This document shows positions 48-61,060 of a stretch of DNA of 64,000 bases, piece after piece (the first letter of the stretch is position 1; every line of letters begins with the position of its first letter). The notes under the pieces were generated by a model. The model did not search any database. It was not told the origin of the DNA and saw nothing but the letters and a program-made list of their open reading frames with translations. The DNA comes from a virus. The stretch lies in UHGV virus genome UHGV-1558314, one strand, 5' to 3'. Position numbers and translations under genes: made by a program.

Positions 48-1031
48 ATGTCAATTTATACAAACCTTAAAAACGCAGTTATGATTAAAAAGATGATTTG
101 CATTGCGGTATGTACTTGGATGTGTGCATGCTGTGAGAAAAATGACGGGGGAGGGGTATTCGATGAGCCGGTAGAACCTCCTGTTGAAAAGCCGACTACT
201 CCGCCGTCAACCGAAGATTTAAGAACAATCAATATTAACGATGAGATTATGGCAGTAGTTGGTACAAAAACTTGGAGAAGCATTGCATATGGTAATGGCA
301 TATATGTAGTAGTTGGTTTAGACGGTTATACTGCATATTCTACGGATGGAGAAAATTGGACAAGAAAAACTGTTGGAACAGAGTCTTGGTATGCTATTGC
401 GTTCGGTAATGGCAAATTCGTTGCCGTAGGTAAATCGAGAAAGATTACAACCACTACCGATGGTAAAACATGGACTACAGTTAAACAAGTAGGAACAAGC
501 GCAGTTGGGAACTGGCTGGCTATTACGTATGCTGATGGCAAATTTATCACATCCAGTTCTAAAGGGTATGGCGCAATATCCATCGATGGTGTGAATTGGA
601 CAAATATGCGAATAGCTTCAGATTATACTTGGTCTTTATCTACTATTGCATATGGAAATGGTAGATTCATTGCGTCTGGTATGTCTAATACTTATAAATC
701 TACAGATGGTGAAACATGGGTAAAGTGTGCTAATCATGTGGCGTGTAATGCCATGACATATGGGGCTGGCAAATTTGTTTCAGTCCATATTGAGAGCGGA
801 GCTTATTCAACCGATAACGGTGAAACATGGACTGACGTGCCAATTACCGGTGGCTCTTATAATTGGCTCGGAATAACATATGCCAACGGTTTATTTGTGG
901 CTGGTGGCCAAGATGGTTACATAACTACTTCCATAGATGGAGTTACATGGAGTCAGCCAGTACAAGTAATACCGAAAGGAACGGGGACTACTAATGACAA
1001 TGCGATATATGACATTGTAAAGATGAATTAG
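48..1031 (+). CDS. BNR/Asp-box repeat lipoprotein (predicted beta-propeller)
   Basis: N-terminal hydrophobic stretch with Cys cluster (CTWMCACC) suggests a lipoprotein signal; six Asp-box-like repeats S/T-x-D-G-x-x-W-T (STDGENWT, TTDGKTWT, SIDGVNWT, STDGETWV, TDNGETWT, SIDGVTWS). One of very few plus-strand genes. Confidence 0.6.
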   Translation: MSIYTNLKNAVMIKKMICIAVCTWMCACCEKNDGGGVFDEPVEPPVEKPTTPPSTEDLRTININDEIMAVVGTKTWRSIAYGNGIYVVVGLDGYTAYSTDGENWTRKTVGTESWYAIAFGNGKFVAVGKSRKITTTTDGKTWTTVKQVGTSAVGNWLAITYADGKFITSSSKGYGAISIDGVNWTNMRIASDYTWSLSTIAYGNGRFIASGMSNTYKSTDGETWVKCANHVACNAMTYGAGKFVSVHIESGAYSTDNGETWTDVPITGGSYNWLGITYANGLFVAGGQDGYITTSIDGVTWSQPVQVIPKGTGTTNDNAIYDIVKMN

Positions 1032-1187: not shown

Positions 1188-1802
1188 CTAAGTTTGGTAC
1201 ATTAAAGTATATAGATGTCTGCCAAATTTGTTGCCATATCGTTTCTGTTTAGTTTCAAGTGCTTTGTCAATATTTATGATGCCTCTTGTACCATGTTCTT
1301 TTTCACGTTTAGCTAAAATTGTTTGCATGTCGCCAAGTTTGTTGCCATATCGTTGCAATTTAGTTTCATGCATTTTTGCAATATTTGTCCAACTATCACC
1401 ATAATGTTGTCTATGTGTTGCAGCGCAACGTGCTTTGTCACCAAACATGTGTCCAAACTTTGCTAAACGACGCTCAACAAATTTTTGCATGTCACCCATG
1501 CCATTACCATATCGTTTCTGCTTAGTTGCAACAGCCTTTTGCATATTGACACCTCGATAGCCATAACGCATTTCTATTGTTGTAGTAATTTTATCACTGA
1601 TGACTTTTGATTGCTGAGCATACTCAAAACCATATTTACGCAAGCAGCCAATTCGCTTATTATATTTCAAACGAATTTTACCATGAGATGTTTGCTTTGG
1701 GGCATACCATTCATATGGCGTTTCTGCAATCAATTTATCGCGTTCAGCTTCAAGTTCTTTTATTCGAGCTTCAAGAGCATCGCCAGTTAGTCGTTCAGCC
1801 AT
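1188..1802 (-). CDS. paralog family member A (tandem basic repeat protein, lacks the C-terminal domain)
   Basis: N-terminus MAERLTGDALEARIKELEAERDKL is near-identical to the ORF at 14031..15398; repeats K-x-x-RYGN-x-x-GDMQ; start taken at internal Met to avoid overlap with terminase. Confidence 0.5.
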   Translation of the reverse strand: MAERLTGDALEARIKELEAERDKLIAETPYEWYAPKQTSHGKIRLKYNKRIGCLRKYGFEYAQQSKVISDKITTTIEMRYGYRGVNMQKAVATKQKRYGNGMGDMQKFVERRLAKFGHMFGDKARCAATHRQHYGDSWTNIAKMHETKLQRYGNKLGDMQTILAKREKEHGTRGIINIDKALETKQKRYGNKFGRHLYTLMYQT

Positions 1803-1869
1803 TGTGTATGAATGTTCAGAATGTAAATTCACTATATGTACATATAACACGAATATTCAAGTTAGATGC

Positions 1870-3861
1870 ATGGCTGAAGTCAAGAATCAAGTGTTTAATC
1901 CAGTAGCACAATTCAAATCTGCTGAAGAAAAAGAAGCTGCGAAAGTTATATGGTGCAGTGAATCAGTCGCAATGGCATATGCTGCAGTTGACCAAGGCTT
2001 GCCACTTAGAGCAAATCCGTGGTTCTTTGGCAATATTGCACTGCGTAAGCCCGGATTGCTATACAGATACACTGACATAGAATTGCGTGAATGGCTTAGA
2101 TGCAAGTATGACATATTATATTTTGCTGACACATGGTGTCAGATTTTAACTCCAGATGGCACAAGAAAGCATTTTAATTTGAGACCATATCAACGCAAAA
2201 TGCTGCGTGCATATCAACGACAAAAGTATACGATAGTTCTTACTGGGCGACAAGTAGGCAAAACGGTCGTTACATCAGTATTTCTTGCTTGGGCTGTCAT
2301 TTTCAATCGTGAGCTCAACATAGCAGTACTTGGCGACCGCTTGGCTACATCAAGCGAAAACCTGAACAAAACAAAAGACATCATAAACAATCTACCATTC
2401 TTTATGAAGCCTGGTGTATTTGTTTGGAATGGGGGAATGGTTGCATTTGACAATGGTTGCAAAATTATCACAGGCACTGCTCAAAAGTCATCACTTGTCG
2501 GTAAAACAATTCACATCTTGTATCTTGATGAGCTCGCAATTCCGCCTGCTCAGCAATCAAAGACTCTTGTAGACTATGCATTACCAACAATTGCATCATT
2601 GCCAACTGGCAAAGTTATTGTAACATCTACGCCATCTGGTGATAATGTGTTCAAGACTTTGTGGCTTGGCGCAATTAACAAAACAAATGGCTTCTTTCCA
2701 ATTCAAGTAAACTGGTGGGACATACCAGGTCGTGATGAAAAATGGAAAGCTGAACAAATTGCAATTCTTGGTGAAGACGCTTTCAATGAGCAATACAACT
2801 GTGTGTTCTTGTCAGGTGCAACATCAATCTTCAATTCAAGAGCAATTGATGATATTGCAAGACGGCAGCAAAAGTACGAATTTGTTGCTGATGAGCATCT
2901 TGAATCGCTGCTCAGATTTTTCATTGCTGATTCAGATGTTGGCACTGAACCTGAGCCGCATTCATTTATGACTTGGCGTGCAGATATTGACCCAGCAACA
3001 CTTAAAAATGAAACATGCATCATCAACATCGACATTGCTGAAGGTTTATCTGGCGACTTTTCTGTCATACATGTGCATCGTATAGTTGACATTGCAAAAG
3101 ACACTGAACTTGAGCTTGATGCAAGCAATCTGTACGATATGTTTGATGACGACAAAAAATCACTATTTGCAAAAGCTGTTGAAATGCAACGTCAAATGTC
3201 AGCAACGCAAACTCAAGATGATGACGATGATGACGATGACGATTGGTTTGGTGCAGACGATGATGTTGCTCAAGGCGTCGATGCATATCAAGATTATGCA
3301 AATGCTGCAGTAGAAGAGATTGGCTTGTGGCGTTCAAATGTGACATCAATCAAAGTCATGGCTCTATATTTGCAGTTCTTAATGACATATGTGTTTGACG
3401 CAAACAAAACAAAGATTATCTATGAACGCAACAAATATGGCGGAGAGTTTCGTTCATATTGTTTGTCTGAACGTGCACGCAATATTGCAATTGATGAAGA
3501 GAGCTTCGTAAGCTTCCAACGAACGCTTGGTTCAGAACAACTTGCACCAGGCTGTTCAATTACACCGGGCACAAAGCCAGTGTATGTAAGACAGCTCAAA
3601 GACCTTGTTGAAACTGGTAAGATTCTTGAAAACAATGCAGACACACAAAGAGAGCTTACATATTTTGGCGGTGTCAAAGGCAAGAATGGGCACGTGTCAT
3701 ATCAGGCGTCGCCTGGCTTCCATGATGACATTGCAATGACTCTTGTATCTCTTGCAGCGTTTATGGACACTCGATGCAATGACTGGCTTGAACTGCTTGA
3801 TGTGTTCTACAATGGAAGCAGCCAAACAAGTTCTGATGATGACGATGACGATTGGATTTGA
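1870..3861 (+). CDS. terminase large subunit
   Basis: Walker A-like VLTGRQVGKT and Walker B-like HILYLDE as in T4 gp17-type terminases; two poly-Asp tracts (DDDDDDDDD internal, DDDDDD near C-terminus). Confidence 0.85.
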   Translation: MAEVKNQVFNPVAQFKSAEEKEAAKVIWCSESVAMAYAAVDQGLPLRANPWFFGNIALRKPGLLYRYTDIELREWLRCKYDILYFADTWCQILTPDGTRKHFNLRPYQRKMLRAYQRQKYTIVLTGRQVGKTVVTSVFLAWAVIFNRELNIAVLGDRLATSSENLNKTKDIINNLPFFMKPGVFVWNGGMVAFDNGCKIITGTAQKSSLVGKTIHILYLDELAIPPAQQSKTLVDYALPTIASLPTGKVIVTSTPSGDNVFKTLWLGAINKTNGFFPIQVNWWDIPGRDEKWKAEQIAILGEDAFNEQYNCVFLSGATSIFNSRAIDDIARRQQKYEFVADEHLESLLRFFIADSDVGTEPEPHSFMTWRADIDPATLKNETCIINIDIAEGLSGDFSVIHVHRIVDIAKDTELELDASNLYDMFDDDKKSLFAKAVEMQRQMSATQTQDDDDDDDDDWFGADDDVAQGVDAYQDYANAAVEEIGLWRSNVTSIKVMALYLQFLMTYVFDANKTKIIYERNKYGGEFRSYCLSERARNIAIDEESFVSFQRTLGSEQLAPGCSITPGTKPVYVRQLKDLVETGKILENNADTQRELTYFGGVKGKNGHVSYQASPGFHDDIAMTLVSLAAFMDTRCNDWLELLDVFYNGSSQTSSDDDDDDWI

Positions 3862-6575: not shown

Positions 6576-6944
6576 TTATTTGATTGCACGTTCAAACATT
6601 CTGCAGCACCAGTCTTTATATGCAGGATTGCCCTTAACATCTGCTCGGAATGCACAGTTGATAAGAGTCTTCTCTTCATCAACAAAGCATGCATAACGAC
6701 AGTTTGCACAGCAACGAGCATCTTCATGTTTCATACAGAATGCTGCGCATGTCATGTCATCTTCTGTGTTGCGAATTGTTTTTGTTGGCGTGTATTCATA
6801 AGTGCACTGACAAATGCCATTATGCTCACGATGAAAGAAGCAATTTTTGCAAACATGTGCAACTTCTTCAACTGGCGCTGATGCTGCATATGTTTGTTCT
6901 TGCTCTACTGCAGGCTGTGCAGCAGCTTTAGTCTTTTTTGCCAT
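6576..6944 (-). CDS. cysteine-rich small protein (possible metal-binding regulator)
   Basis: Start taken at MAKKTKAAA; the longer ORF-track N-terminus translates the intergenic tandem repeat. About 16 Cys in 123 aa. Confidence 0.5.
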   Translation of the reverse strand: MAKKTKAAAQPAVEQEQTYAASAPVEEVAHVCKNCFFHREHNGICQCTYEYTPTKTIRNTEDDMTCAAFCMKHEDARCCANCRYACFVDEEKTLINCAFRADVKGNPAYKDWCCRMFERAIK

Positions 6945-6975
6945 TGTATCAAATGTTTGTATTTGTATTTGTAAG

Positions 6976-7080
6976 TTGTTTTGATGCAAAATGCAAAACA
7001 ATATAAAATTGTTTTGATGCAAAATGCAAAACAATATAAAATTGTTTTGATGCAAAATGCAAAACAATATGTTGTTTTGA
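6976..7080. repeat. 33-bp direct repeat array (about 3.3 copies)
   Basis: ttgttttgatgcaaaatgcaaaacaatataaaa repeated head to tail; unit is partly palindromic (ttgttttg...caaaacaa); immediately upstream of the Cys-rich gene. Confidence 0.8.
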
Positions 7081-7083
7081 TAT

Positions 7084-8988
7084 CTACAAAGATTTGAACA
7101 ATTCCTCGTACGTTACAATTTTCTTGTCTTTTGCAAGTGCAGCTTTCATTTTATTCGACAGTTTGTTGGGGTCATTTGTAACAACATAGTCGCATGCATC
7201 AATGTTTGCACCGACATCTTCAAGCTTACCATTTGCAGCGTCAATAAATGCACCCTTTGTTGCCCAAGTAGGCTTAGGCGAGCCTGTCATGACAACCTTG
7301 ATTGTATCAGCGTTCGTAGATGCTTCTTTGTGCATTTCATTGAACATTACGAAGCATTGCGGGTATTGTTTGAGCAATCTTTGAATGACATTCAACTTTA
7401 TGAGCTTATCAATGGGTTCCATGCTCAAGCCCTTAAAGTCATATTGACAATTGCTGAAGTACGCAGATAACTGATACGCTGCTTTGCTGCCAAGACCAGG
7501 AATCTGCATGCATTCAATGAAATGCGATAAGTGAATGCTATTGAAGCGTTCACGTAAGCCTGTAATGACTGTACGGTCATTTTTGCTGTTCATGTCAAAC
7601 TGTAGCAGCTCAAACAATCGTTCATTGTCAACTTCTTGCACAATGCAGAACAAGTCTTCAATTGTTGGCGCATCAGAGAATGTCAACATGACATCAAGAT
7701 TGTCTTGTGCAATAAGCAAAGCCTCGCAAATTTTCGTAGCATAAACCCAACCAAGCCCATCGATGTTAAGCTTGCAAACGCCTTTGATAAACCTCGTGCA
7801 TCTTGCAAATTCCTCAGGCATCATCAAGTGAATGCCATCGACATATGCATGCACAGGAATGTCAGCTTTGCTGATATCACCAGGTTCAATACATTCTTGA
7901 ATGTCTGGAATAATGTCACCACCCTTTTCAATACGAACAAGAGCACCTGGCCAGATACCATTTGCATGCAAAAAGCCGTAGTGAAATGCAGATGCAGCCT
8001 TGACTGTAGTGCCATCAAGCTCAACAGGCTCAAGTTCAACTCTGGGAAAGAGTTCACCATTGATTCGTTGACGCCAATCAATTCGAATCACTCGAGTTAC
8101 AGCAGACATTGCGTCAAGCTTCAATGCAACCATGTTTGCATATTCTGCTGCATTTGCAAACTGCTGCTCAATCCACAAGTCATCTGCAAAAGGCTTGACT
8201 ACAATGCCATCAATGCGATATTTGAATTCTGAGCGCTCATTGGCAATTTTTGTGCAAGTTTCTGCAAACTCATTGTAATCAGTGACTTCAAAGACTTCTG
8301 CAATAAATTCTGCGGGCCAGCCAACTTTTGCAAGAGCATCTGCAGGATTGGTTTGCTCATATATTTTGTCATCAAGTGTGTCAGTTAGCATGTATGCCAT
8401 AGGGTCAATGTCTTCCATACCACACATATCTAATGACTTCACAAATGCCGCAGCAGTATTGCGCTCATTTTTGTATTTGACTGAGCCATCAGAGTTGAAG
8501 TGATATTTTTGCGCAAAAACGTCTTTTGCAATGACAGCTTCAAAGCGAATCTGATATGGCTGTTCTGCTGCAGCAAGCTGCATCGGCACTTTGCCTGCTA
8601 CGACAAATTTGCGTGTGACATCATAGCCCGTGTAGCCATCACCACGAGTAACAACTTTCAGCAATCTGCCATCAGTGTCGTAATGTGCTTCACAGCCCAT
8701 GCCGTCATACTTGTGCATAAGCAGCATTTCATGACCAACAATGTTGCACACAGTATCATGCAACGCAGTCGTAAACTGTGATTTTGTATGAATTGCAGCA
8801 AGACTCAATGCAGGTGTAAGATGCTTAACTTCTTGCTTATTTGACTCTTCAAAGCGAATCTTATGTTTGATGTCGCTATTTGCAAGAAGCTGCTGTTCAA
8901 GAGCATCAAATGCCTCATCAGACATTATCGGATTGCCTGCATAATACGCAGCTATTGCGTCATGGTACATATTGAGTGTATCAGTCAT
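7084..8988 (-). CDS. ligA: NAD-dependent DNA ligase
   Basis: Adenylation motif HKYDGMG followed by TRGDGYTGYDVT (LigA K-x-D-G ... TRGDG..GEDVT pattern); helix-hairpin-helix-like IPGLGSKAAYQL. Confidence 0.8.
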   Translation of the reverse strand: MTDTLNMYHDAIAAYYAGNPIMSDEAFDALEQQLLANSDIKHKIRFEESNKQEVKHLTPALSLAAIHTKSQFTTALHDTVCNIVGHEMLLMHKYDGMGCEAHYDTDGRLLKVVTRGDGYTGYDVTRKFVVAGKVPMQLAAAEQPYQIRFEAVIAKDVFAQKYHFNSDGSVKYKNERNTAAAFVKSLDMCGMEDIDPMAYMLTDTLDDKIYEQTNPADALAKVGWPAEFIAEVFEVTDYNEFAETCTKIANERSEFKYRIDGIVVKPFADDLWIEQQFANAAEYANMVALKLDAMSAVTRVIRIDWRQRINGELFPRVELEPVELDGTTVKAASAFHYGFLHANGIWPGALVRIEKGGDIIPDIQECIEPGDISKADIPVHAYVDGIHLMMPEEFARCTRFIKGVCKLNIDGLGWVYATKICEALLIAQDNLDVMLTFSDAPTIEDLFCIVQEVDNERLFELLQFDMNSKNDRTVITGLRERFNSIHLSHFIECMQIPGLGSKAAYQLSAYFSNCQYDFKGLSMEPIDKLIKLNVIQRLLKQYPQCFVMFNEMHKEASTNADTIKVVMTGSPKPTWATKGAFIDAANGKLEDVGANIDACDYVVTNDPNKLSNKMKAALAKDKKIVTYEELFKSL

Positions 8989-14014: not shown

Positions 14015-14043
14015 TAATACTACTGACTTGTCAATTTTGCACA
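14015..14043 (-). promoter_or_regulatory. recurrent bipartite promoter-like motif
   Basis: ataatactactgacttgtcaattttgcac upstream of the clamp loader start. Confidence 0.45.
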
Positions 14044-15398
14044 GCATGACCACAGTCATAAACTGCAACATAGCCAGCATCAATCATCTCTTGCTCATCT
14101 TGTCCGCAGTCTTCAATATGTTTGCCTGTCTTGTAATTATGCCAATGCTTATGTATTACATAGTCTTTTGCAAAGTGGGGATTTTTTGACATATCTGTAC
14201 TATCAATTGGTAAATGTTCGATATGTCTACGAATAATATCAATAACGTAGTCTACATTATCCCAATCCCATATTGATACGCAAACAAAACCGTGCTGCAA
14301 TGCAACTAATGTTTTTGTTAAATGATATGTTGGCTGCTTTAGATGCAATGGATTATTGTAATTTGTGCGACCCACACTATATTGAAATGTATATGTGCTA
14401 TTATGTGTAAATGACGGATTGACTTCTATTAACAATTTGCATGTCTGTGTAATATATGACAAATCATATGTGTATGCGTTTATATGAAAGCTGTCAAGTT
14501 CAAATGTAATGCCAAGCGCTTGCTGTAATTTTGATTGCCACCATTTGTTAATTGCAGAAGTCATGCGCCCATTATGTTTAATGCATTGAGGCAATTGGCA
14601 TGCCCAATCAACGCCATACAATGTTTTACATGTCTGTGTAGCTGTACGCATATTAAATGCTCTATAGCCATACAATTTGTGTCGTGTTTGACAACCCTGT
14701 TCATGGTTTACATATAATGGGTTGCCATAACGTTCAAGTTTTGTTTGCTCAATTTTGTGTTTATCGCCAAACGCATTGCCATATTTGCGCAATTTTGTAT
14801 GAATTTGTTTATCTACAGGGCCTTGCGGATAGCCATGTCGCTCAATGTTTGTTTTACGACACTTGTCGACATTGTATTTAGACTTACCATATCGTTCAAG
14901 CTTTGTTTGCTGAATTTTATCAATGTCGCCAAACGCATTGCCGTATTTTTGCTGCTTTGTTTGCAACATTTGTTTAACATTGCCTTGCGGATAGCCATAC
15001 TTTAGCATATTCTTTTGTCTAATCTTAGATTTATCACCAAAGATTGAGCCATCATACAATACGCGTTTAGTTGCCATCATTTGTTGCACATTGCCGCTTT
15101 TATTGCCATACTTTTCAATCTTCGTATTAAGCATTTTTTGAACATTGCCATGTCCGCTGCCATAACGCGCTTTTCGTGTATCAATCATTTGCACTTTAAC
15201 TGTGTCAATTTGCAATGGATTTTCAACACCGTGTTTGCGCAAGCAGCCAATACGTTTGTTGAAAGCTAAACGAATTTTGCCATGCGACGTTTTACATGGC
15301 GCATATCTCACAAAGGGTGTTTCTGCAAGCAATCTGTCTCTTTCCTCTTCAAGTTCTTTTATGCGAGCTTCAAGAGCTTCTCCAGTTAATGGTTCCAT
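14031..15398 (-). CDS. paralog family member B (repeat array plus conserved C-terminal domain)
   Basis: About ten ~19-aa repeats K-x-x-(R/K)YGN-x-x-G-(D/N); C-terminal motifs LLIEVNPSFTHNST, VSIWDWD, VYDCGH shared with the ORFs at 55475..56494, 56599..57621 and 59771..61060. Confidence 0.6.
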   Translation of the reverse strand: MEPLTGEALEARIKELEEERDRLLAETPFVRYAPCKTSHGKIRLAFNKRIGCLRKHGVENPLQIDTVKVQMIDTRKARYGSGHGNVQKMLNTKIEKYGNKSGNVQQMMATKRVLYDGSIFGDKSKIRQKNMLKYGYPQGNVKQMLQTKQQKYGNAFGDIDKIQQTKLERYGKSKYNVDKCRKTNIERHGYPQGPVDKQIHTKLRKYGNAFGDKHKIEQTKLERYGNPLYVNHEQGCQTRHKLYGYRAFNMRTATQTCKTLYGVDWACQLPQCIKHNGRMTSAINKWWQSKLQQALGITFELDSFHINAYTYDLSYITQTCKLLIEVNPSFTHNSTYTFQYSVGRTNYNNPLHLKQPTYHLTKTLVALQHGFVCVSIWDWDNVDYVIDIIRRHIEHLPIDSTDMSKNPHFAKDYVIHKHWHNYKTGKHIEDCGQDEQEMIDAGYVAVYDCGHAVQN

Positions 15399-55474: not shown

Positions 55475-56494
55475 CTATTGCTTATGCCAGCCATATGATG
55501 CCTGACCAGCATCATACACTTCTACAAAACCATGGTCGTACATAAAATCTTCATTACGAGTGCCCTTGCCCCCATTAGTACCAAGAATACGGTCTGCACC
55601 ATGCATAAGCAGCATATTATTTGTGATATGTTGCTTTGTCAGCATATTGAACCAATGTTTGCTATATGACAAGCCAAGACCATCAAAGCCCAGCTTTGTG
55701 TACACGCCACCATCAAACTTGCTCAAATCACAATACGACAACACAGATTCAGGGTCATATGTCTTGATAAAGTGCTTGAATATGCGTTCGGCGCCACCTA
55801 CGACTTTTGTTGCTGCACAAAGACGCAGTAGTTCATACTGATATCGCTTATTGTATCGTGGACGACCAAATGTCATAAGCTGATGTATGACATAGCCGCC
55901 AAGCAATTCAAGTGGATGGCCTTCAATCAACGCAAGATTGATAAAATTGCCTGAGCACTTGCCTTGCAAATGATGTTCAATCAAAAATTGATTTGCAGTA
56001 TACTTGTCAATTTCAACAACTTTAAGCTTGCGAGCATATACAATCTTTGATTTGTCTACGATTTGATGCTTGATGTGATTGATAACTTTCTTGGCGTCAT
56101 CCCAATCCCACACATGAATGCAATGAAAGCCTGCAGCTTTTGCAATGTCTGTTTTCTTTGCATGAATATCACAAGGCAAATGCGAATCTTTTGCAGCATG
56201 CATAAATAGATGCTCAAATGAATGCGTGCTATTATGTGAAAATGTGGGATTGATGTTGATGACGATGTTGTCATGTCTAAAATCGAAGACTTCATCACCA
56301 ATAACAAAGTTGCGCTCAAAATCTATACCGACATGTTTGAGTAATACTTGATGCCACACATCTTTATAGGCTGATTCAAGATTGCTTAGCTCATCACAGT
56401 TTGCAATATTTTTGTAACGTTGAATAGCAGCATCAAAGTCAAGATTGACTTCAGCGTAGTCTGCATTTTTATCGTAGTGAAATTTTGAGCTCAT
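55475..56494 (-). CDS. paralog family member C (conserved domain without the repeat array, extra inserted region)
   Basis: NINPTFSHNST, CIHVWDWDD, FVEVYDAGQ; FLIEHHLQG region between them; start taken at MSSKFHYD (ATG at 56494). Confidence 0.55.
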   Translation of the reverse strand: MSSKFHYDKNADYAEVNLDFDAAIQRYKNIANCDELSNLESAYKDVWHQVLLKHVGIDFERNFVIGDEVFDFRHDNIVININPTFSHNSTHSFEHLFMHAAKDSHLPCDIHAKKTDIAKAAGFHCIHVWDWDDAKKVINHIKHQIVDKSKIVYARKLKVVEIDKYTANQFLIEHHLQGKCSGNFINLALIEGHPLELLGGYVIHQLMTFGRPRYNKRYQYELLRLCAATKVVGGAERIFKHFIKTYDPESVLSYCDLSKFDGGVYTKLGFDGLGLSYSKHWFNMLTKQHITNNMLLMHGADRILGTNGGKGTRNEDFMYDHGFVEVYDAGQASYGWHKQ

Positions 56495-56598
56495 GTGTAT
56501 AATTTGTATGAGATTATTGTACAACATGCAAATGCATGTTGCATTTGATGCAAAGTACTGCGTACACAACATAAAGTACAAGTTTGCTTTTGACAGAC

Positions 56599-57966: not shown

Positions 57967-59682
57967 TCAAATCCAGCCGTAGTCGCTGTGGATAGCGAAG
58001 GTGAGGTAAGCCAACTCGGGATACATACCCGTCTCCGCGAGAGCGTAATCCGACTCAATCAGCAACTTTGGCGCTGCTGTTCCTTCGGCTGTTAATTCCA
58101 CACTTGATGCAAGGTCATATGGCATGAATACACATCCCTGGTTGACATTCTCTACGTCAACACCGTCAGCAGTCTTGTTCGTACGAAGAACGAGAACAGT
58201 GTTGTCGTTCAGCGGCTGCTTAGGATTGCAATAGATTTTAATGCCAGCAAGGTCACCTGCGTAATACAGGTTTTTGTTGTCCTGTACCAGCGTATTGTCA
58301 AGAGCTGCAACAAAGTTTTTCTGAGCCTTAATTGCAACCAAGGCAATCGTATTGACCACAGCAGCATCACCAGCACCGAAACGCGACAGGTTGCCAATGA
58401 TTGCCGAAGCAGCCAGGATACGCGTTGCGATACGAGCCTGACGGGTAATCTGGTTCTCAGCCGAGCTGTTCGATTCAGCGTTCGGAACCATGCCGAATTC
58501 AGCCGTACGGTCTACACCCATCTTGTCGACAAATGCAGGAGCTTGGAATTCCGAGAATGCCTTGGCAGTCGAACCAGCGTAGCCAATGTACAAGTTCAGG
58601 TTGTAGCCCTGAGCAGCCAACAGCTGAGCATGTGTCGTAACACCAAGTGCACGCATGCGCTTCAGACCATTGTCATTGATTGACTGCGTGATTTCATTCT
58701 GCATTGCATTCTTGATGATTGCAACTGCATCCAAACCGCGAGCACGGAGGTCCTTAACCTGGCGACGAGTCAGAGCGCCCCAAGTCTGGTACGTCTTAAC
58801 TTCGATAGCCTTTGAGAAGGTGCGGAGCTCCAGCATGTTCGGGTTGCCAGCCTCAGCCTCAGAACGAGACATTGGGTTGCCGTCAAGGTCATCCATTGCA
58901 GCGAAGCCGTGGATGTGTTCGTCACCAGCCGAAACCAGGTCGAACATAACCTCAGTCATACCAGTCAGCAAGTCAGTTACAGCACCTGCAGCGTCAACCG
59001 AGTAGATTTTCGATGCAGCCATTGCAACATCAGCCAACGACTTGTCAGGAGCAACAGTCATTGCGCCACCTGCGCCTACAGTGTACACGCCCTCATTGCG
59101 AACTACGAGGTAGCCTGCAACACGCGATACCTGTACAAACGTTACTTTGGCAGCAAGCTCACCAGCAGCTGAACCGCCGATGTACAGAACTTGACCCTTC
59201 TTGAGGCCACGAACCATTGTCTGCGAAGCAACATTGTACAGTTCCTTCCACTTGATGAGGAAGTAGCGAGGACCCTTGGCAACATTCAGCTTGCCGCCAC
59301 CATACACGTAGTCTACATAGTCCAGCTGAACCAGCGGGCTGTAAACAGGAATGGTCGGGAGCAGGTCGAACAGAATCGTGTTGGCTGCGATGTTCATGTT
59401 CAGAGCCAGAACATTGGCAGCTACATCGATTGAACCACGCTTACGCGACGGGTCATGGAACTGTGCTTGCGTGCCTGGGTCAGCAGGGAAAGCGACCGGA
59501 CCTACGCCATTGAGATTCTGCGAATACGTCGACTCAAACGACTCGTTCATATACTGAACGTTCTGAGCGATTGATGCGAGCAGATACTTCTTAGCGGGCG
59601 AGAGCTTGGAGTCAAACGACTCATCAAGAACAGGGCCCCACTTTTTCAGCAATGCATCAATCTGTGTACGTTTTGCGTTCAT
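57967..59682 (-). CDS. major capsid protein (T4 gp23-like)
   Basis: Several segments resemble T4 gp23 as recalled from memory (DALLKKWGPVLDES vs ELLNKWKPLLEGEG; ...IPVYSPLVQLDYVDYVYG; FSKAIEVKTYQ...AVAIIKNAMQNEI); nucleotide composition visibly more GC-rich than neighbours, consistent with a highly expressed gene. Confidence 0.8.
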   Translation of the reverse strand: MNAKRTQIDALLKKWGPVLDESFDSKLSPAKKYLLASIAQNVQYMNESFESTYSQNLNGVGPVAFPADPGTQAQFHDPSRKRGSIDVAANVLALNMNIAANTILFDLLPTIPVYSPLVQLDYVDYVYGGGKLNVAKGPRYFLIKWKELYNVASQTMVRGLKKGQVLYIGGSAAGELAAKVTFVQVSRVAGYLVVRNEGVYTVGAGGAMTVAPDKSLADVAMAASKIYSVDAAGAVTDLLTGMTEVMFDLVSAGDEHIHGFAAMDDLDGNPMSRSEAEAGNPNMLELRTFSKAIEVKTYQTWGALTRRQVKDLRARGLDAVAIIKNAMQNEITQSINDNGLKRMRALGVTTHAQLLAAQGYNLNLYIGYAGSTAKAFSEFQAPAFVDKMGVDRTAEFGMVPNAESNSSAENQITRQARIATRILAASAIIGNLSRFGAGDAAVVNTIALVAIKAQKNFVAALDNTLVQDNKNLYYAGDLAGIKIYCNPKQPLNDNTVLVLRTNKTADGVDVENVNQGCVFMPYDLASSVELTAEGTAAPKLLIESDYALAETGMYPELAYLTFAIHSDYGWI

Positions 59683-59770: not shown

Positions 59771-61060
59771 TCATTTTTCAATCTTTTTGAGCAATGCATG
59801 ACCGCAATCATAGACTTCGACGAAGCCTGAAGCAATCAATGAGTCAACATCTATAGAAGACGTTCGTATAATATGTTCGTGTGTCTTGATATTGTATAGA
59901 TGACACTGAACCCATGTTTTGACGACTTCATAATTTGGATACAATCGAGGGTCTTCTTTTGACAAATCAAGTTCTATGACATCATCAGTTTTGAGCTGCT
60001 CAGTTTTGTTTATGACATCTCTAATGTGCAGCAACATATCATATCTACAATCCCAGTCAAATATTGTTATACATCGATAGCCATTGCGTGCTGCAACATC
60101 TGTTTTGAATTTGTGAGCATACGCAGGTTTGGCGTCATTATCAACAGAATGCCCAGTTATGTAACCAAAGCCCTTTGTTGCATTGTGTGTAACAGTTGGA
60201 TTGATTTCAATTACAACAGCATCTTTTCGCAAATCATATAACAAGTTCTCAATAGGATGCTCAGTAACAAAATCAAGATTGCAAGAATGTTTCAAATCCC
60301 ATTGCCACGACATATTGATGTTTGATGTCAACCTTGCAGATGCTTGCGGCAATTGCAATGCATGTTCTACACCATAGCGTTCACGTAATGTTGCATGAGC
60401 CCTTTGCATATTTTGCATTGCGGGACCCCAATGCTCAAATTTTGTAGCATTTATCTTTGCAATTTTGTCTGGTAGCTTATTTGTACTATCTACACCATAT
60501 TTAATAAGACAACTGATGCGAATATTGTATTGTCGTTTTATTCGAGAATGTGACGTAGCACATCTACTAAATCGTTCAAATGGTGTTGATGCAATCAATG
60601 CATCTCGTTCTGACTCAAGAGCTTTGACATGTTCAAGCACTTCTGCTGGTACATTATCATAGTCAATCACATATTGCTGACGTGGTTGCGTTACATGAGT
60701 TTTGCCGTGTGTCTTAAGCTTATTGATTTGTATGCTATACTTTCTGCGTATATGTGGATGTCTTGATGCATCAGATTGCGCAATTTCATGCTCTCGTTGC
60801 TCTTCAAGTTTAGCTATTTGCTCAACAATAGCTGGTTCAATGTCTGGTTTGTCTGATATGACTATGTTTTTAAGCTCATCAAGACGCTTGTTGAGATATT
60901 TGACACGTCTTGTATATGTTATCTTTGCAACTTGATGGTTTGTATGATGCTTGCCTACTTGCTGTTCTGGTTGATTCAGCGTGTCATCAAGGCGTTGCTT
61001 AGCGAGCTCAAATTCATTATCAAGCCATGCTTTATGCGCATCAAATTCATCTTGTGTCAT
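59771..61060 (-). CDS. paralog family member E
   Basis: N-terminal coiled segment plus VIEINPTVTHNAT, CITIFDWD, FVEVYDCGH. Confidence 0.6.
   Translation of the reverse strand: MTQDEFDAHKAWLDNEFELAKQRLDDTLNQPEQQVGKHHTNHQVAKITYTRRVKYLNKRLDELKNIVISDKPDIEPAIVEQIAKLEEQREHEIAQSDASRHPHIRRKYSIQINKLKTHGKTHVTQPRQQYVIDYDNVPAEVLEHVKALESERDALIASTPFERFSRCATSHSRIKRQYNIRISCLIKYGVDSTNKLPDKIAKINATKFEHWGPAMQNMQRAHATLRERYGVEHALQLPQASARLTSNINMSWQWDLKHSCNLDFVTEHPIENLLYDLRKDAVVIEINPTVTHNATKGFGYITGHSVDNDAKPAYAHKFKTDVAARNGYRCITIFDWDCRYDMLLHIRDVINKTEQLKTDDVIELDLSKEDPRLYPNYEVVKTWVQCHLYNIKTHEHIIRTSSIDVDSLIASGFVEVYDCGHALLKKIEK

What the first reader, a model, noticed from the sequence alone, without database searches (positions are those of the whole stretch)
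3170..3861. Poly-aspartate insertions in the terminase large subunit
Runs of 9 and 6 consecutive Asp residues (DDDDDDDDDWFGADDD and SSDDDDDDWI) occur in the C-terminal nuclease half of the terminase. Homopolymeric acidic tracts are unusual in terminases and may mediate interaction with portal or small-terminase basic surfaces.
Basis: seen in the sequence. Interest (0 to 1): 0.4.

Follow-up and report, generated by a model that had tools for sequence, protein, structure and literature searches.

The report
Acidic flexible tethers on a phage terminase
The DNA-packaging enzyme of this large T4-like phage really does carry two aspartate runs, and they are the local form of two floppy, acidic segments kept by one clade of related phages, probably used to dock the motor on a positively charged partner such as the portal: a modest variation on a known theme.

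Summary
The large terminase (TerL, window 1870-3861, 663 aa) contains D9 (nt 3217-3243) and D6 (nt 3835-3852). Both exceed chance, and they are the only acidic runs of 5 or more residues in the 64-kb window. Thirteen independently assembled strain variants carry them (D9 in 12, D10 in 1; D6 in all).

The protein is an intact T4 gp17-type TerL. D9 lies in a 74-residue insertion between strands β2 and β3 of the RNase-H-like nuclease core, where T4 has a 3-residue turn. The model shows a helical arm followed by a disordered acidic loop. D6-W-I is the end of the disordered C-terminal tail, not an insertion.

Acidic character, not sequence, is conserved at both sites down to about 32% identity (about 11 clusters at 50% identity), including cultured Chryseobacterium phage MA9V-1. 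Pure Asp runs of 6 or more are rare (4 of 261 homologues). Acidic, aromatic C-termini also occur in T7 gp19 and in an unrelated TerL ending DDDDDDDF.

Best reading: electrostatic docking or regulatory tethers, most likely binding the portal. Binding is untested. This is a new variant of a known kind, of modest interest.

The parts
1870..3861 (+). Large terminase (TerL) CDS, 663 aa, T4 gp17 type (ATG at 1870; the ORF listing extends it to a GTG at 1804)
   Evidence: Pfam Terminase_6N, 78 bits against a cut-off of 22. PHROG terminase large subunit, 4e-51. T4 gp17 in the PDB by sequence, 1e-45, and by fold, 1.6e-36. The exact 663-aa sequence is present in public assemblies.
2245..2265 (+). Walker A motif G126-RQVGK-T132
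   Evidence: R127, Q128 and K131 are invariant in the 65-sequence alignment. The motif aligns to T4 SRQLGKT.
2527..2532 (+). Walker B Asp and catalytic Glu (D220, E221)
   Evidence: Invariant columns. They align to T4 IDE.
2170..2229 (+). Helix before Walker A (aa 101-120, HFNLRPYQRKMLRAYQRQKY), unusually basic in the acidic-insert clades
   Evidence: Mean charge is +6.0 in the acidic-insert clades against +0.4 in other homologues. Spearman rho between insert charge and helix charge is -0.52 (n=122), and -0.49 within long-insert sequences (n=28). No phylogenetic correction was applied.
3031..3033 (+). Nuclease catalytic Asp D388 (T4 D401), at the C-terminal end of β1
   Evidence: Alignment with T4 gp17. 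Invariant column.
3088..3309 (+). Clade-specific 74-aa insertion (aa 407-480) between β2 (HVHRIV) and β3 (VEEIGLWRSN) of the RNase-H-like core; net charge -19
   Evidence: T4 has 3 residues here. An intermediate clade has 21-25 neutral residues. The query clade has 74-98 residues with charge -17 to -24.
3091..3216 (+). Helical arm of the insertion (helices at aa 408-416, 421-424 and 427-449)
   Evidence: AlphaFold2 model, DSSP helices, pLDDT 61-80.
3217..3279 (+). Disordered acidic loop (aa 450-470), DDDDDDDDDWFGADDDVAQGV; the D9 tract is 3217-3243
   Evidence: pLDDT below 50 for aa 454-470. It is the local version of a conserved acidic-hydrophobic motif, for example DDEFSDLVDDD, EDDMFDAMVDDE and DDPMDAFVDDD. 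TRF finds a 9-nt unit, GATGATGAC x2.6.
3424..3426 (+). Nuclease catalytic Glu E519 (T4 E458)
3727..3729 (+). Nuclease catalytic Asp D620 (T4 D542)
3766..3858 (+). C-terminal tail after the nuclease core (aa 633-663, net charge -9), ending SSDDDDDDWI; the D6 tract is 3835-3852 and W-I is 3853-3858
   Evidence: aa 651-663 have pLDDT below 50. Short acidic tails, mostly ending in aromatic or hydrophobic residues, are conserved across the clade. The position aligns with T4 ...SDDYAPV... in the tail that is dispensable in vitro (PMC3074133).
3226..3246 (+). First copy of the exact 21-nt string GATGATGACGATGACGATTGG (DDDDDDW)
   Evidence: None of 100 shuffles gave 2 matches.
3835..3855 (+). Second copy of the same 21-nt string (DDDDDDW)

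Best explanation
The two Asp runs are this lineage's homopolymeric form of two conserved, intrinsically disordered, acidic-plus-hydrophobic segments on the nuclease domain of a T4-type large terminase. One is the ordinary C-terminal tail, here Asp6-Trp-Ile-COOH. The other is a clade-specific addition: a helical arm inserted in the β2-β3 connection next to the interdomain hinge, carrying an acidic loop, here Asp9-Trp-Phe.

I propose that both act as flexible electrostatic tethers. The carboxylate run steers the segment to a basic surface, and the aromatic or hydrophobic residues that follow anchor it. The most likely target is the portal/prohead vertex, as described for TerL C-terminal tails in other phages. 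Each motor subunit would then have two docking points.

Shown: the position of the segments, predicted disorder, an intact enzyme, clade-wide conservation of charge but not sequence, near-fixed tract length among strains, and recurrence of poly-Asp plus a terminal aromatic in another TerL lineage. Inferred: the binding partner and the docking role. The homopolymer itself probably arose by slippage of a 9-nt GATGATGAC unit inside a loop where only charge is under selection.
For: The enzyme is intact. Walker A and B are present, the D388/E519/D620 triad is conserved, and the fold matches T4 gp17.

Both tracts lie in segments with pLDDT below 50. The internal one follows a helical arm.

Insert length and charge are graded across clades: 1-4 aa in T4-like proteins, 21-25 neutral residues in an intermediate clade, 38-65 aa with charge mostly -10 to -19 in closer relatives (two members have only -3), and 74-98 aa with charge -17 to -24 in the query clade. 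A long acidic insert always comes with a short tail of charge -7 to -13, mostly ending in aromatic or hydrophobic residues.

The loop contains a conserved acidic-hydrophobic motif.

The cultured relative MA9V-1 has the same two elements without homopolymers.

Tract length is nearly invariant in 13 strain variants while flanking residues vary.

A TerL from a different subclade (P0157, neutral 21-aa insert) independently ends ...YDDDDDDDF. T7 gp19 ends ...SEDDEGYGTSFIEW and λ gpA ends ...SGEDE.

Literature: the TerL C-terminal tail is thought to bind the portal (PMC5389665). The T4 C-terminal domain docks on the portal clip (PMC10893049). HK97 nuclease domains sit directly below the portal (PMC10359639).

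The query's two tracts share an exact 21-nt / DDDDDDW string.
Against: No binding partner was tested, and no portal or small terminase could be identified in the window.

In T4, removing the last 33 residues leaves all known in vitro enzymatic functions intact (PMC3074133), so the tail is not essential for catalysis there. The orientation of T4 TerL on the portal is still disputed (PMC9958956).

One close homologue (P0002) ends ...DYDEDDD with no terminal hydrophobic residue.

The resemblance between internal and C-terminal motifs within the same protein is only marginal across the clade (permutation p about 0.03, driven by a few lineages).

Codon-level evidence for selection on the tracts is not significant: 0 of 15 codons changed against 5 of 40 outside, p about 0.13.

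The extra positive charge sits in TerL's own ATPase domain, which points to an intramolecular partner instead.
Confidence: 0.42

Rival explanations
1. Intramolecular or inter-subunit regulator. The acidic loop, and possibly the tail, folds back as a DNA-like polyanion onto basic DNA-gripping or interdomain surfaces of TerL itself. This would tune the electrostatic ATPase-nuclease coupling or hold the motor or nuclease off until it is assembled on DNA and the portal.
For: The insert leaves the core at the end of β2, next to where the chain enters the nuclease domain from the hinge. This follows from strand topology: β1 383-388, β2 398-407.

The ATPase part carries net charge +9.4 in the query clade and +5.7 in the mid acidic clade, against -4.0 and -1.1 in clades without the acidic insert. 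The difference is concentrated in the helix before Walker A (+6.0 against +0.4) and at K212, K231 and K262.

Insert charge correlates with helix charge: rho -0.52 overall and -0.49 within long-insert sequences.

In T4, interdomain charge pairs contribute to force generation, and a hinge/β-hairpin track regulates the nuclease (PMC9958956; PMC3074133). The ATPase domain is the main DNA-gripping surface in P74-26 TerL (PMC5389665).
Against: The correlations are not corrected for phylogeny and rest on essentially two related clades. The query itself has an ATPase charge of only +4, and T4's helix is also +4. No coordinates or contact predictions were available, so proximity of the loop to the basic residues is not shown. 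The base of the insert is at the end of the sheet far from the nuclease active site.
Confidence: 0.27
2. Functionally neutral low-complexity expansion. A surface loop and a disordered tail tolerate slippage-driven GAT/GAC expansion, and the acidity merely keeps them soluble (an entropic bristle) without a specific partner.
For: TRF detects a 9-nt unit x2.6 and a 3-nt periodicity in the tract. A D10 variant exists. Sequence and length of the insert vary widely between homologues. T4's tail is dispensable in vitro. Two members of the long-insert group (P0014, P0136) have inserts with charge of only -2 to -3.
Against: Strong negative charge is retained over roughly 11 clusters at 50% identity, down to about 32% identity. 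Hydrophobic or aromatic positions inside the acidic loop are conserved. Length is nearly fixed in 13 strain variants. Nothing comparable occurs in any other ORF of the window, so this is not a genome-wide mutational bias. Poly-Asp with a terminal aromatic recurs independently.
Confidence: 0.2
3. Immune evasion. The bulky acidic arm on the nuclease domain hinders recognition of TerL by bacterial sensors that read its native shape and charge (Avs1/Avs3-type).
For: SeAvs3 binds the folded nuclease domain extensively, and the interfaces rely on shape and charge complementarity (PMC13601566). The Avs3-terminase complex 8dgc is among the fold matches.
Against: This is purely circumstantial. Nothing here shows that the hosts carry such sensors or that the β2-β3 end of the domain lies in the sensor interface. 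It does not explain the acidic C-terminal tail, which is also found in phages without the insert.
Confidence: 0.05
4. Artefact or mis-annotation: a sequencing or assembly error in a repeat, or an intein or other mobile insertion rather than part of the mature protein.
For: Low-complexity GAT/GAC DNA can be error-prone.
Against: The tracts are identical in independent assemblies from many samples. The reading frame is intact and the catalytic residues lie downstream of the first tract. There is no intein or endonuclease domain: only Terminase_6N is found at E up to 0.1. At 74 aa the insert is too short for an intein.
Confidence: 0.01

Closest known systems
Bacteriophage T4 gp17 (T4-type large terminase; PDB 3CPE/3EZK)
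   Same: Same two-domain enzyme. Pfam Terminase_6N, Walker A/B and the D-E-D nuclease triad are present, and T4 gp17 is the best sequence and fold match. T4 also has a flexible, net-negative post-core tail containing ...SDDYAPV....
   Different: T4 has a 3-residue β2-β3 turn where this protein has a 74-aa helical arm plus acidic loop. T4's tail is longer (56 aa after the aligned core), ends non-acidic (…SHGMSMV) and has no homopolymer.
Prohead/portal-binding C-terminal tails of other TerLs (T7/T3 gp19, λ gpA, P74-26, HK97)
   Same: A disordered segment after the nuclease core. T7 gp19 ends SEDDEGYGTSFIEW and λ gpA ends SGEDE, which resemble DDDDDDWI here and DDGYGL/DDDGFGI in clade members. 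The literature assigns portal contact to this tail or domain.
   Different: Those proteins belong to other TerL lineages. None is reported to have a second, internal acidic element. Binding by this tail is untested.
Chryseobacterium phage MA9V-1 'terminase family protein' (OR050627, MA9V1_262)
   Same: Closest cultured relative, 40% identity over 95% of the protein. It has an acidic insert of about 50 aa at the same site (…DSLDYMVDGDDDFQMGDDLFEDYD…) and an acidic aromatic tail (…DDFYGDGFDEWVG).
   Different: It has no Asp homopolymer and a shorter insert. The record annotates it only generically.
Acidic C-terminal tails with a terminal aromatic residue in phage replication proteins (T7 gp2.5 and gp4; bacterial SSB tip). 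Recalled from general knowledge, not tested here.
   Same: The same design principle: a disordered run of carboxylates ending in an aromatic or hydrophobic residue that plugs into a basic pocket of a partner.
   Different: These are unrelated proteins and processes. The resemblance is only in motif style and is a lead, not a membership claim.

Membership tests
T4-type large terminase (Pfam Terminase_6N / gp17-like) | Profile match above the curated threshold | tested here: met
   PF03237: 78.3 bits against a cut-off of 22, E 8e-22. phrog_5989 terminase large subunit, 3.7e-51.
T4-type large terminase (Pfam Terminase_6N / gp17-like) | ASCE ATPase motifs: Walker A (RQxGKT) and Walker B Asp plus catalytic Glu | tested here: met
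   R127, Q128, K131, D220 and E221 are invariant in 65 homologues and align with T4.
T4-type large terminase (Pfam Terminase_6N / gp17-like) | RNase-H-like nuclease domain with the Asp-Glu-Asp metal-binding triad (T4 D401/E458/D542) | tested here: met
   D388, E519 and D620 align to the T4 triad and are invariant.
T4-type large terminase (Pfam Terminase_6N / gp17-like) | Overall two-domain fold like gp17 | tested here: met
   The model has pLDDT 88. The top Foldseek hits in the PDB are 3ezk/3cpe at E 1e-36.
T4-type large terminase (Pfam Terminase_6N / gp17-like) | ATP-driven DNA packaging and headful cleavage activity | not testable with these tools
   Requires biochemistry.
TerL C-terminal portal/prohead-binding tail | Flexible segment following the last core helix of the nuclease domain | tested here: met
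   aa 651-663 have pLDDT below 50. The tail begins after helix 637-649.
TerL C-terminal portal/prohead-binding tail | Composition similar to tails of TerLs with documented prohead binding | tested here: met
   T7 gp19 ends …SEDDEGYGTSFIEW and λ gpA ends …SGEDE, against DDDDDDWI here. This is a resemblance only.
TerL C-terminal portal/prohead-binding tail | Physical binding to the portal clip or prohead | not testable with these tools
   The portal gene was not found in the window, and no multimer modelling was available.
Intein or homing-endonuclease insertion in TerL | Hint/intein or endonuclease domain in the inserted segment, more than about 130 aa | tested here: not met
   Only Terminase_6N is found at E up to 0.1. 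The insert is 74 aa, helical plus disordered. Some distant relatives do carry PF14890 inteins, but elsewhere in the protein.
Structured DNA-mimic proteins (Ocr/ArdA-like) | Rigid fold displaying carboxylates with DNA-like spacing | tested here: not met
   The acidic segments are predicted disordered. A disordered polyanion acting like DNA remains possible but is not membership of that class.
TerL-specific auxiliary β-hairpin (autoregulatory element of the literature) | Hairpin immediately before the last catalytic Asp | tested here: not met
   That hairpin corresponds to aa ~599-613 here (strands 599-603 and 609-613; PMC5389665). The Asp9 insert is in the β2-β3 connection, a different element.

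The most novel reading that the evidence does not exclude
Each TerL subunit carries two copies of the same 'Asp-run plus aromatic' docking motif, one internal on a helical arm and one C-terminal. A pentameric motor would then present ten tethers to the twelve-fold portal, giving bivalent, symmetry-mismatch-tolerant docking. Alternatively, the internal copy competes with DNA or with the tail for a basic site on TerL's own ATPase domain. It would then act as a built-in polyanionic switch coupling portal docking to nuclease and ATPase activity, and might incidentally mask TerL from Avs-type sensors.
Probability: 0.12. Interest if true: 0.6.

Novelty: new variant of a known kind. Interest (0 to 1): 0.3.

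Why it matters
How the five-fold terminase motor attaches to the twelve-fold portal is still unsettled, and so is how its nuclease is kept silent during translocation. Even the orientation of T4 gp17 on the portal is disputed. This clade of large Bacteroidota-type myoviruses has added a second, internal acidic tether beside the interdomain hinge, apparently with compensating positive charge in the ATPase domain. It offers a natural variant in which electrostatic docking or autoregulation could be dissected. A cultured relative (MA9V-1) is available for genetics. If the segments are only tolerated low-complexity sequence, the finding is merely a useful annotation note: poly-Asp in TerL is real, not an artefact.

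Tried and rejected
1. I looked for the binding partners in the window. PHROG, Pfam and PDB searches of 20 large ORFs found topoisomerase II, RNR, DHFR, exonuclease, major head protein, tail sheath and an HNH endonuclease, but no portal or small terminase. Partner charge could therefore not be examined.

2. Codon-level test of selection. The 94% relative has 95 synonymous differences in the gene but none in the 15 tract codons. The expectation is only about 1.9, so p is about 0.13 and not significant.

3. Test that the internal and C-terminal motifs co-vary within proteins. The result is marginal: self 28.5 against cross 26.3, permutation p 0.034, with low-complexity caveats. I did not rely on it.

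4. I first suspected the insert lay in the TerL-specific 'autoregulatory β-hairpin'. I rejected this after reading PMC5389665: that hairpin sits just before the last catalytic Asp.

5. The megaphage hit LR745206 could not be translated with table 11, giving a 13-aa ORF, possibly because of an alternative genetic code (not checked). I dropped it.

6. An intein or mobile-element origin of the insert is rejected.

7. A genome-wide acidic-run bias is rejected.

8. Dixit et al. 2013 (PMC3903156) is not held in the library. I cite it only through the review PMC10893049.

9. A literature search for terminase + aspartate-rich + insertion returned no papers.

10. Model coordinates are not exposed by the tools, so distances between the loop, the basic helix and the active site could not be measured.
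Full report
**Observation.** The + strand ORF ending at 3861 (ATG at 1870, 663 aa) reads ...MSATQTQDDDDDDDDDWFGADDDVAQG... and ends ...NGSSQTSSDDDDDDWI*.
- The Asp9 run is aa 450-458 (nt 3217-3243). The Asp6 run is aa 656-661 (nt 3835-3852). Two further DDD triplets flank the first run.
- Asp makes up 8.9% of the protein. In 20,000 shuffles a run of 6 or more appeared four times and a run of 9 never.
- No other open frame of 100 codons or more in the 64-kb window has a D/E run of 5 or more, so this is not a genome-wide compositional habit.
- The exact protein is in public collections, in a 90%-identity cluster of 41 members. Of the 13 full-length variants listed, 12 have Asp9, one has Asp10 and all have Asp6, while neighbouring residues vary. 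One of these variants occurs on 39 contigs.
- The tracts are therefore real and nearly fixed in length.

**Identity of the gene.** The protein is a T4 gp17-type large terminase.
- Pfam Terminase_6N scores 78 bits against a cut-off of 22. PHROG families for terminase large subunit match. T4 gp17 is the best PDB match by sequence (1e-45).
- The AlphaFold2 model (mean pLDDT 88) has T4 gp17 as its best fold match (E 1.6e-36).
- Walker A (R127, Q128, K131) and Walker B with the catalytic Glu (D220, E221) are invariant in a 65-sequence alignment. The nuclease triad D388/E519/D620 aligns with T4 D401/E458/D542.
- The enzyme looks fully functional.
- The window belongs to a T4-like myovirus with topoisomerase II, ribonucleotide reductase, DHFR, NAD-ligase, major head protein and tail sheath genes.
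- Its nearest cultured relatives are Chryseobacterium phage MA9V-1 (40% identity), Sphingomonas phage PAU and Tenacibaculum phages, all with genomes above 200 kb.

**Where the tracts sit.**
- Asp9 lies in a 74-residue insertion between strand β2 (…SVIHVHRIV) and strand β3 (VEEIGLWRSN…) of the RNase-H-like core. T4 has only three residues there.
- In the model the insertion forms a helical arm (helices 408-416, 421-424 and 427-449; pLDDT 61-80). A segment with pLDDT below 50 (454-470) follows and holds the Asp run. A short helix then leads back into β3.
- D388 is at the C-terminal end of β1 (383-388), and β2 (398-407) runs antiparallel to it. The insertion therefore leaves the sheet at the end away from the active site, beside the point where the chain enters the domain from the interdomain hinge. 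This is an inference from the model's strand topology.
- This is not the TerL-specific β-hairpin discussed as an autoregulatory element. That hairpin lies just before the last catalytic Asp, here about aa 599-613.
- The Asp6-Trp-Ile run is not an insertion. It is the end of the 31-residue tail that follows the last core helix, and its last 13 residues have pLDDT below 50.

**Comparative picture.** The same two positions were measured in 120 homologues (90%-identity clusters) and 150 representatives of 50%-identity clusters from 1.84 billion proteins.
- The β2-β3 connection falls into classes:

| Group | Insert length | Insert charge |
|---|---|---|
| T4-like proteins | 1-4 residues | about 0 |
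| Large intermediate group | 21-25 residues | about neutral |
| Closer relatives (about 32-45% identity) | 38-65 residues | mostly -10 to -19 |
| Query's own clade (54% identity or more) | 74-98 residues | -17 to -24 |

- Two members of the closer-relative group, P0014 and P0015, have insert charges of only -3.
- About 11 of 141 representative clusters with an aligned triad have a long acidic insert.
- Every one of them also has a short tail (22-49 residues after the aligned core, charge -7 to -13). These tails mostly end in aromatic or hydrophobic residues: DDGFGI, DDGYGL, EDDYW, DDMPW, DEFDDF.
- Sequence and length vary, but the acidic loop contains a recurrent acidic-hydrophobic pattern: DDEFSDLVDDD, EDDMFDAMVDDE, DDPMDAFVDDD, and here DDDWFGADDDV.
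- MA9V-1 has both elements without homopolymers. PAU gp87 lacks the acidic insert.
- Pure Asp runs of 6 or more occur in only 4 of 261 homologues, and Asp9 only in this cluster.
- One of those four, P0157, belongs to a different subclade with a neutral 21-residue insert and ends ...KRYDDDDDDDF. This is an independent appearance of 'poly-Asp plus terminal aromatic' at a TerL C-terminus.
- T7 gp19 ends ...SEDDEGYGTSFIEW and λ gpA ends ...SGEDE.
- Acidity at both sites is therefore a conserved, selected property. The homopolymer is a lineage-specific extreme of it.

**DNA level.**
- The two tracts share an exact 21-nt string, GATGATGACGATGACGATTGG (DDDDDDW), at 3226 and 3835. None of 100 shuffles gave two matches.
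- Tandem Repeats Finder sees a 9-nt unit (GATGATGAC x2.6) in the first tract. With the Asp10 variant, this points to slippage as the source of the homopolymer.
- Against the 94%-identical relative (90.9% nucleotide identity, 95 synonymous differences), none of the 15 tract codons differ. The expectation is only about 1.9, so this is not significant.
- A test of whether the internal and C-terminal motifs resemble each other more within a protein than between proteins was marginal (p about 0.03).

**An unexpected correlate.**
- In the acidic-insert clades the N-terminal ATPase part of TerL is net positive: +9.4 ± 3.3 in the query clade and +5.7 in the next clade. Clades without the acidic insert have -4.0 and -1.1.
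- The difference is concentrated in the helix just before Walker A (aa 101-120, HFNLRPYQRKMLRAYQRQKY; +6.0 against +0.4) and at K212, K231 and K262.
- Insert charge and helix charge correlate: rho -0.52 for n=122, and -0.49 within the 28 long-insert sequences.
- These figures are not corrected for shared ancestry. The query itself is only +4 overall. I treat the correlation as suggestive only.

**Mechanism.** What is shown: two disordered, strongly acidic segments with hydrophobic anchor residues, attached to an intact nuclease domain and conserved in character across a clade.
- The published function of TerL C-terminal tails and domains is contact with the portal or prohead (PMC5389665; T4 FRET and suppressor genetics summarised in PMC10893049; HK97 motor cryo-EM in PMC10359639).
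- On that basis my preferred reading (0.42) is that both segments are electrostatic docking tethers for a basic surface of the portal vertex. The internal copy would be a clade-specific second tether.
- The main rival (0.27) is an intramolecular or inter-subunit role. The polyanionic loop, emerging beside the hinge, would pair with the extra basic residues of the ATPase domain. It would then modulate the electrostatic interdomain coupling known from T4 (PMC9958956) or compete with DNA on the ATPase domain, the main DNA-gripping surface in P74-26 TerL.
- A neutral low-complexity expansion (0.20) would fit the slippage signature and T4's dispensable tail (PMC3074133). It fits poorly with the clade-wide retention of charge and anchors and with the fixed tract length.
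- Shielding from Avs-type sensors that read the native nuclease domain (PMC13601566) cannot be excluded but has no direct support (0.05).
- An artefact is excluded.

**Comparison and novelty.**
- The gene is a member of the T4-type large terminase family. All sequence and fold criteria tested were met.
- The C-terminal acidic, aromatic tail is a known kind of element in an extreme form.
- The helical-arm-plus-acidic-loop insertion in the β2-β3 connection is, as far as the searched literature goes, undescribed (no hits). It is present but unremarked in a deposited cultured phage genome.
- I rate it a new variant of a known kind, of modest interest (0.3).
- It would become more interesting if the bivalent-tether or built-in polyanionic-switch idea were borne out.

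Noticed in passing
window 1188-1850 (-): A 220-aa ORF immediately upstream of TerL on the opposite strand consists largely of tandem 'T-K-Q-K-R-Y-G-N-x-x-G' type repeats, with a weak sub-threshold DUF7487 match. In the 94% relative (L005) the gene at this position is 424 aa, so this neighbour of TerL is variable and possibly mobile. Faint DUF7487 matches also occur in 14031-15398 (-) and 59771-61060 (-).
   Followed up: partly
window 1870-3861 and flanks: TerL is an isolated + strand gene among - strand genes, with no small-terminase-like ORF directly upstream. T4 has g16-g17, and MA9V-1 has a 117-aa ORF overlapping the TerL start (L002 43-396). No portal or TerS was recognisable anywhere in the 64 kb.
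   Followed up: partly
window 48-1031 (+): A 327-aa ORF has a lipoprotein-like N-terminus and repeated 'YGNGKFVAVG / W..I.YGNG.F' units that look like β-propeller blades. It has only a weak DUF6242 match.
   Followed up: no
window 55475-56581 (-): An HNH/homing-endonuclease gene (phrog_3339, 7e-42) lies close to the major head protein gene (57967-59682, -).
   Followed up: no
window ~6990-7067 (-), start of ORF 6576-7067: The predicted N-terminus reads FCILHQNNFILFCILHQNNFILFCILHQNN, which implies a perfect ~33-nt tandem DNA repeat just downstream of the NAD-ligase gene (7084-8988, -). It is possibly regulatory rather than coding.
   Followed up: no
homologues P0100, P0102-P0104 and long representatives (800-1070 aa, e.g. 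P0174, P0243): Several related TerLs carry intein domains (PF14890) or match the query in 3-4 separate stretches, indicating intein or other insertions in the ATPase domain. This window's TerL has none.
   Followed up: no
L004 (LR745206.1 176778-181709): The TerL-homologous region of this 635-kb uncultured megaphage does not give a long ORF with genetic code 11 (a 13-aa ORF at the match). Stop-codon reassignment is one possible reason, but this was not checked.
   Followed up: no
P0157 (667-aa TerL homologue, 33% identity): It ends ...FKRYDDDDDDDF and has an upstream DDDDD, although its β2-β3 insert is short and neutral. This is an independent poly-Asp C-terminus in another TerL subclade.
   Followed up: partly
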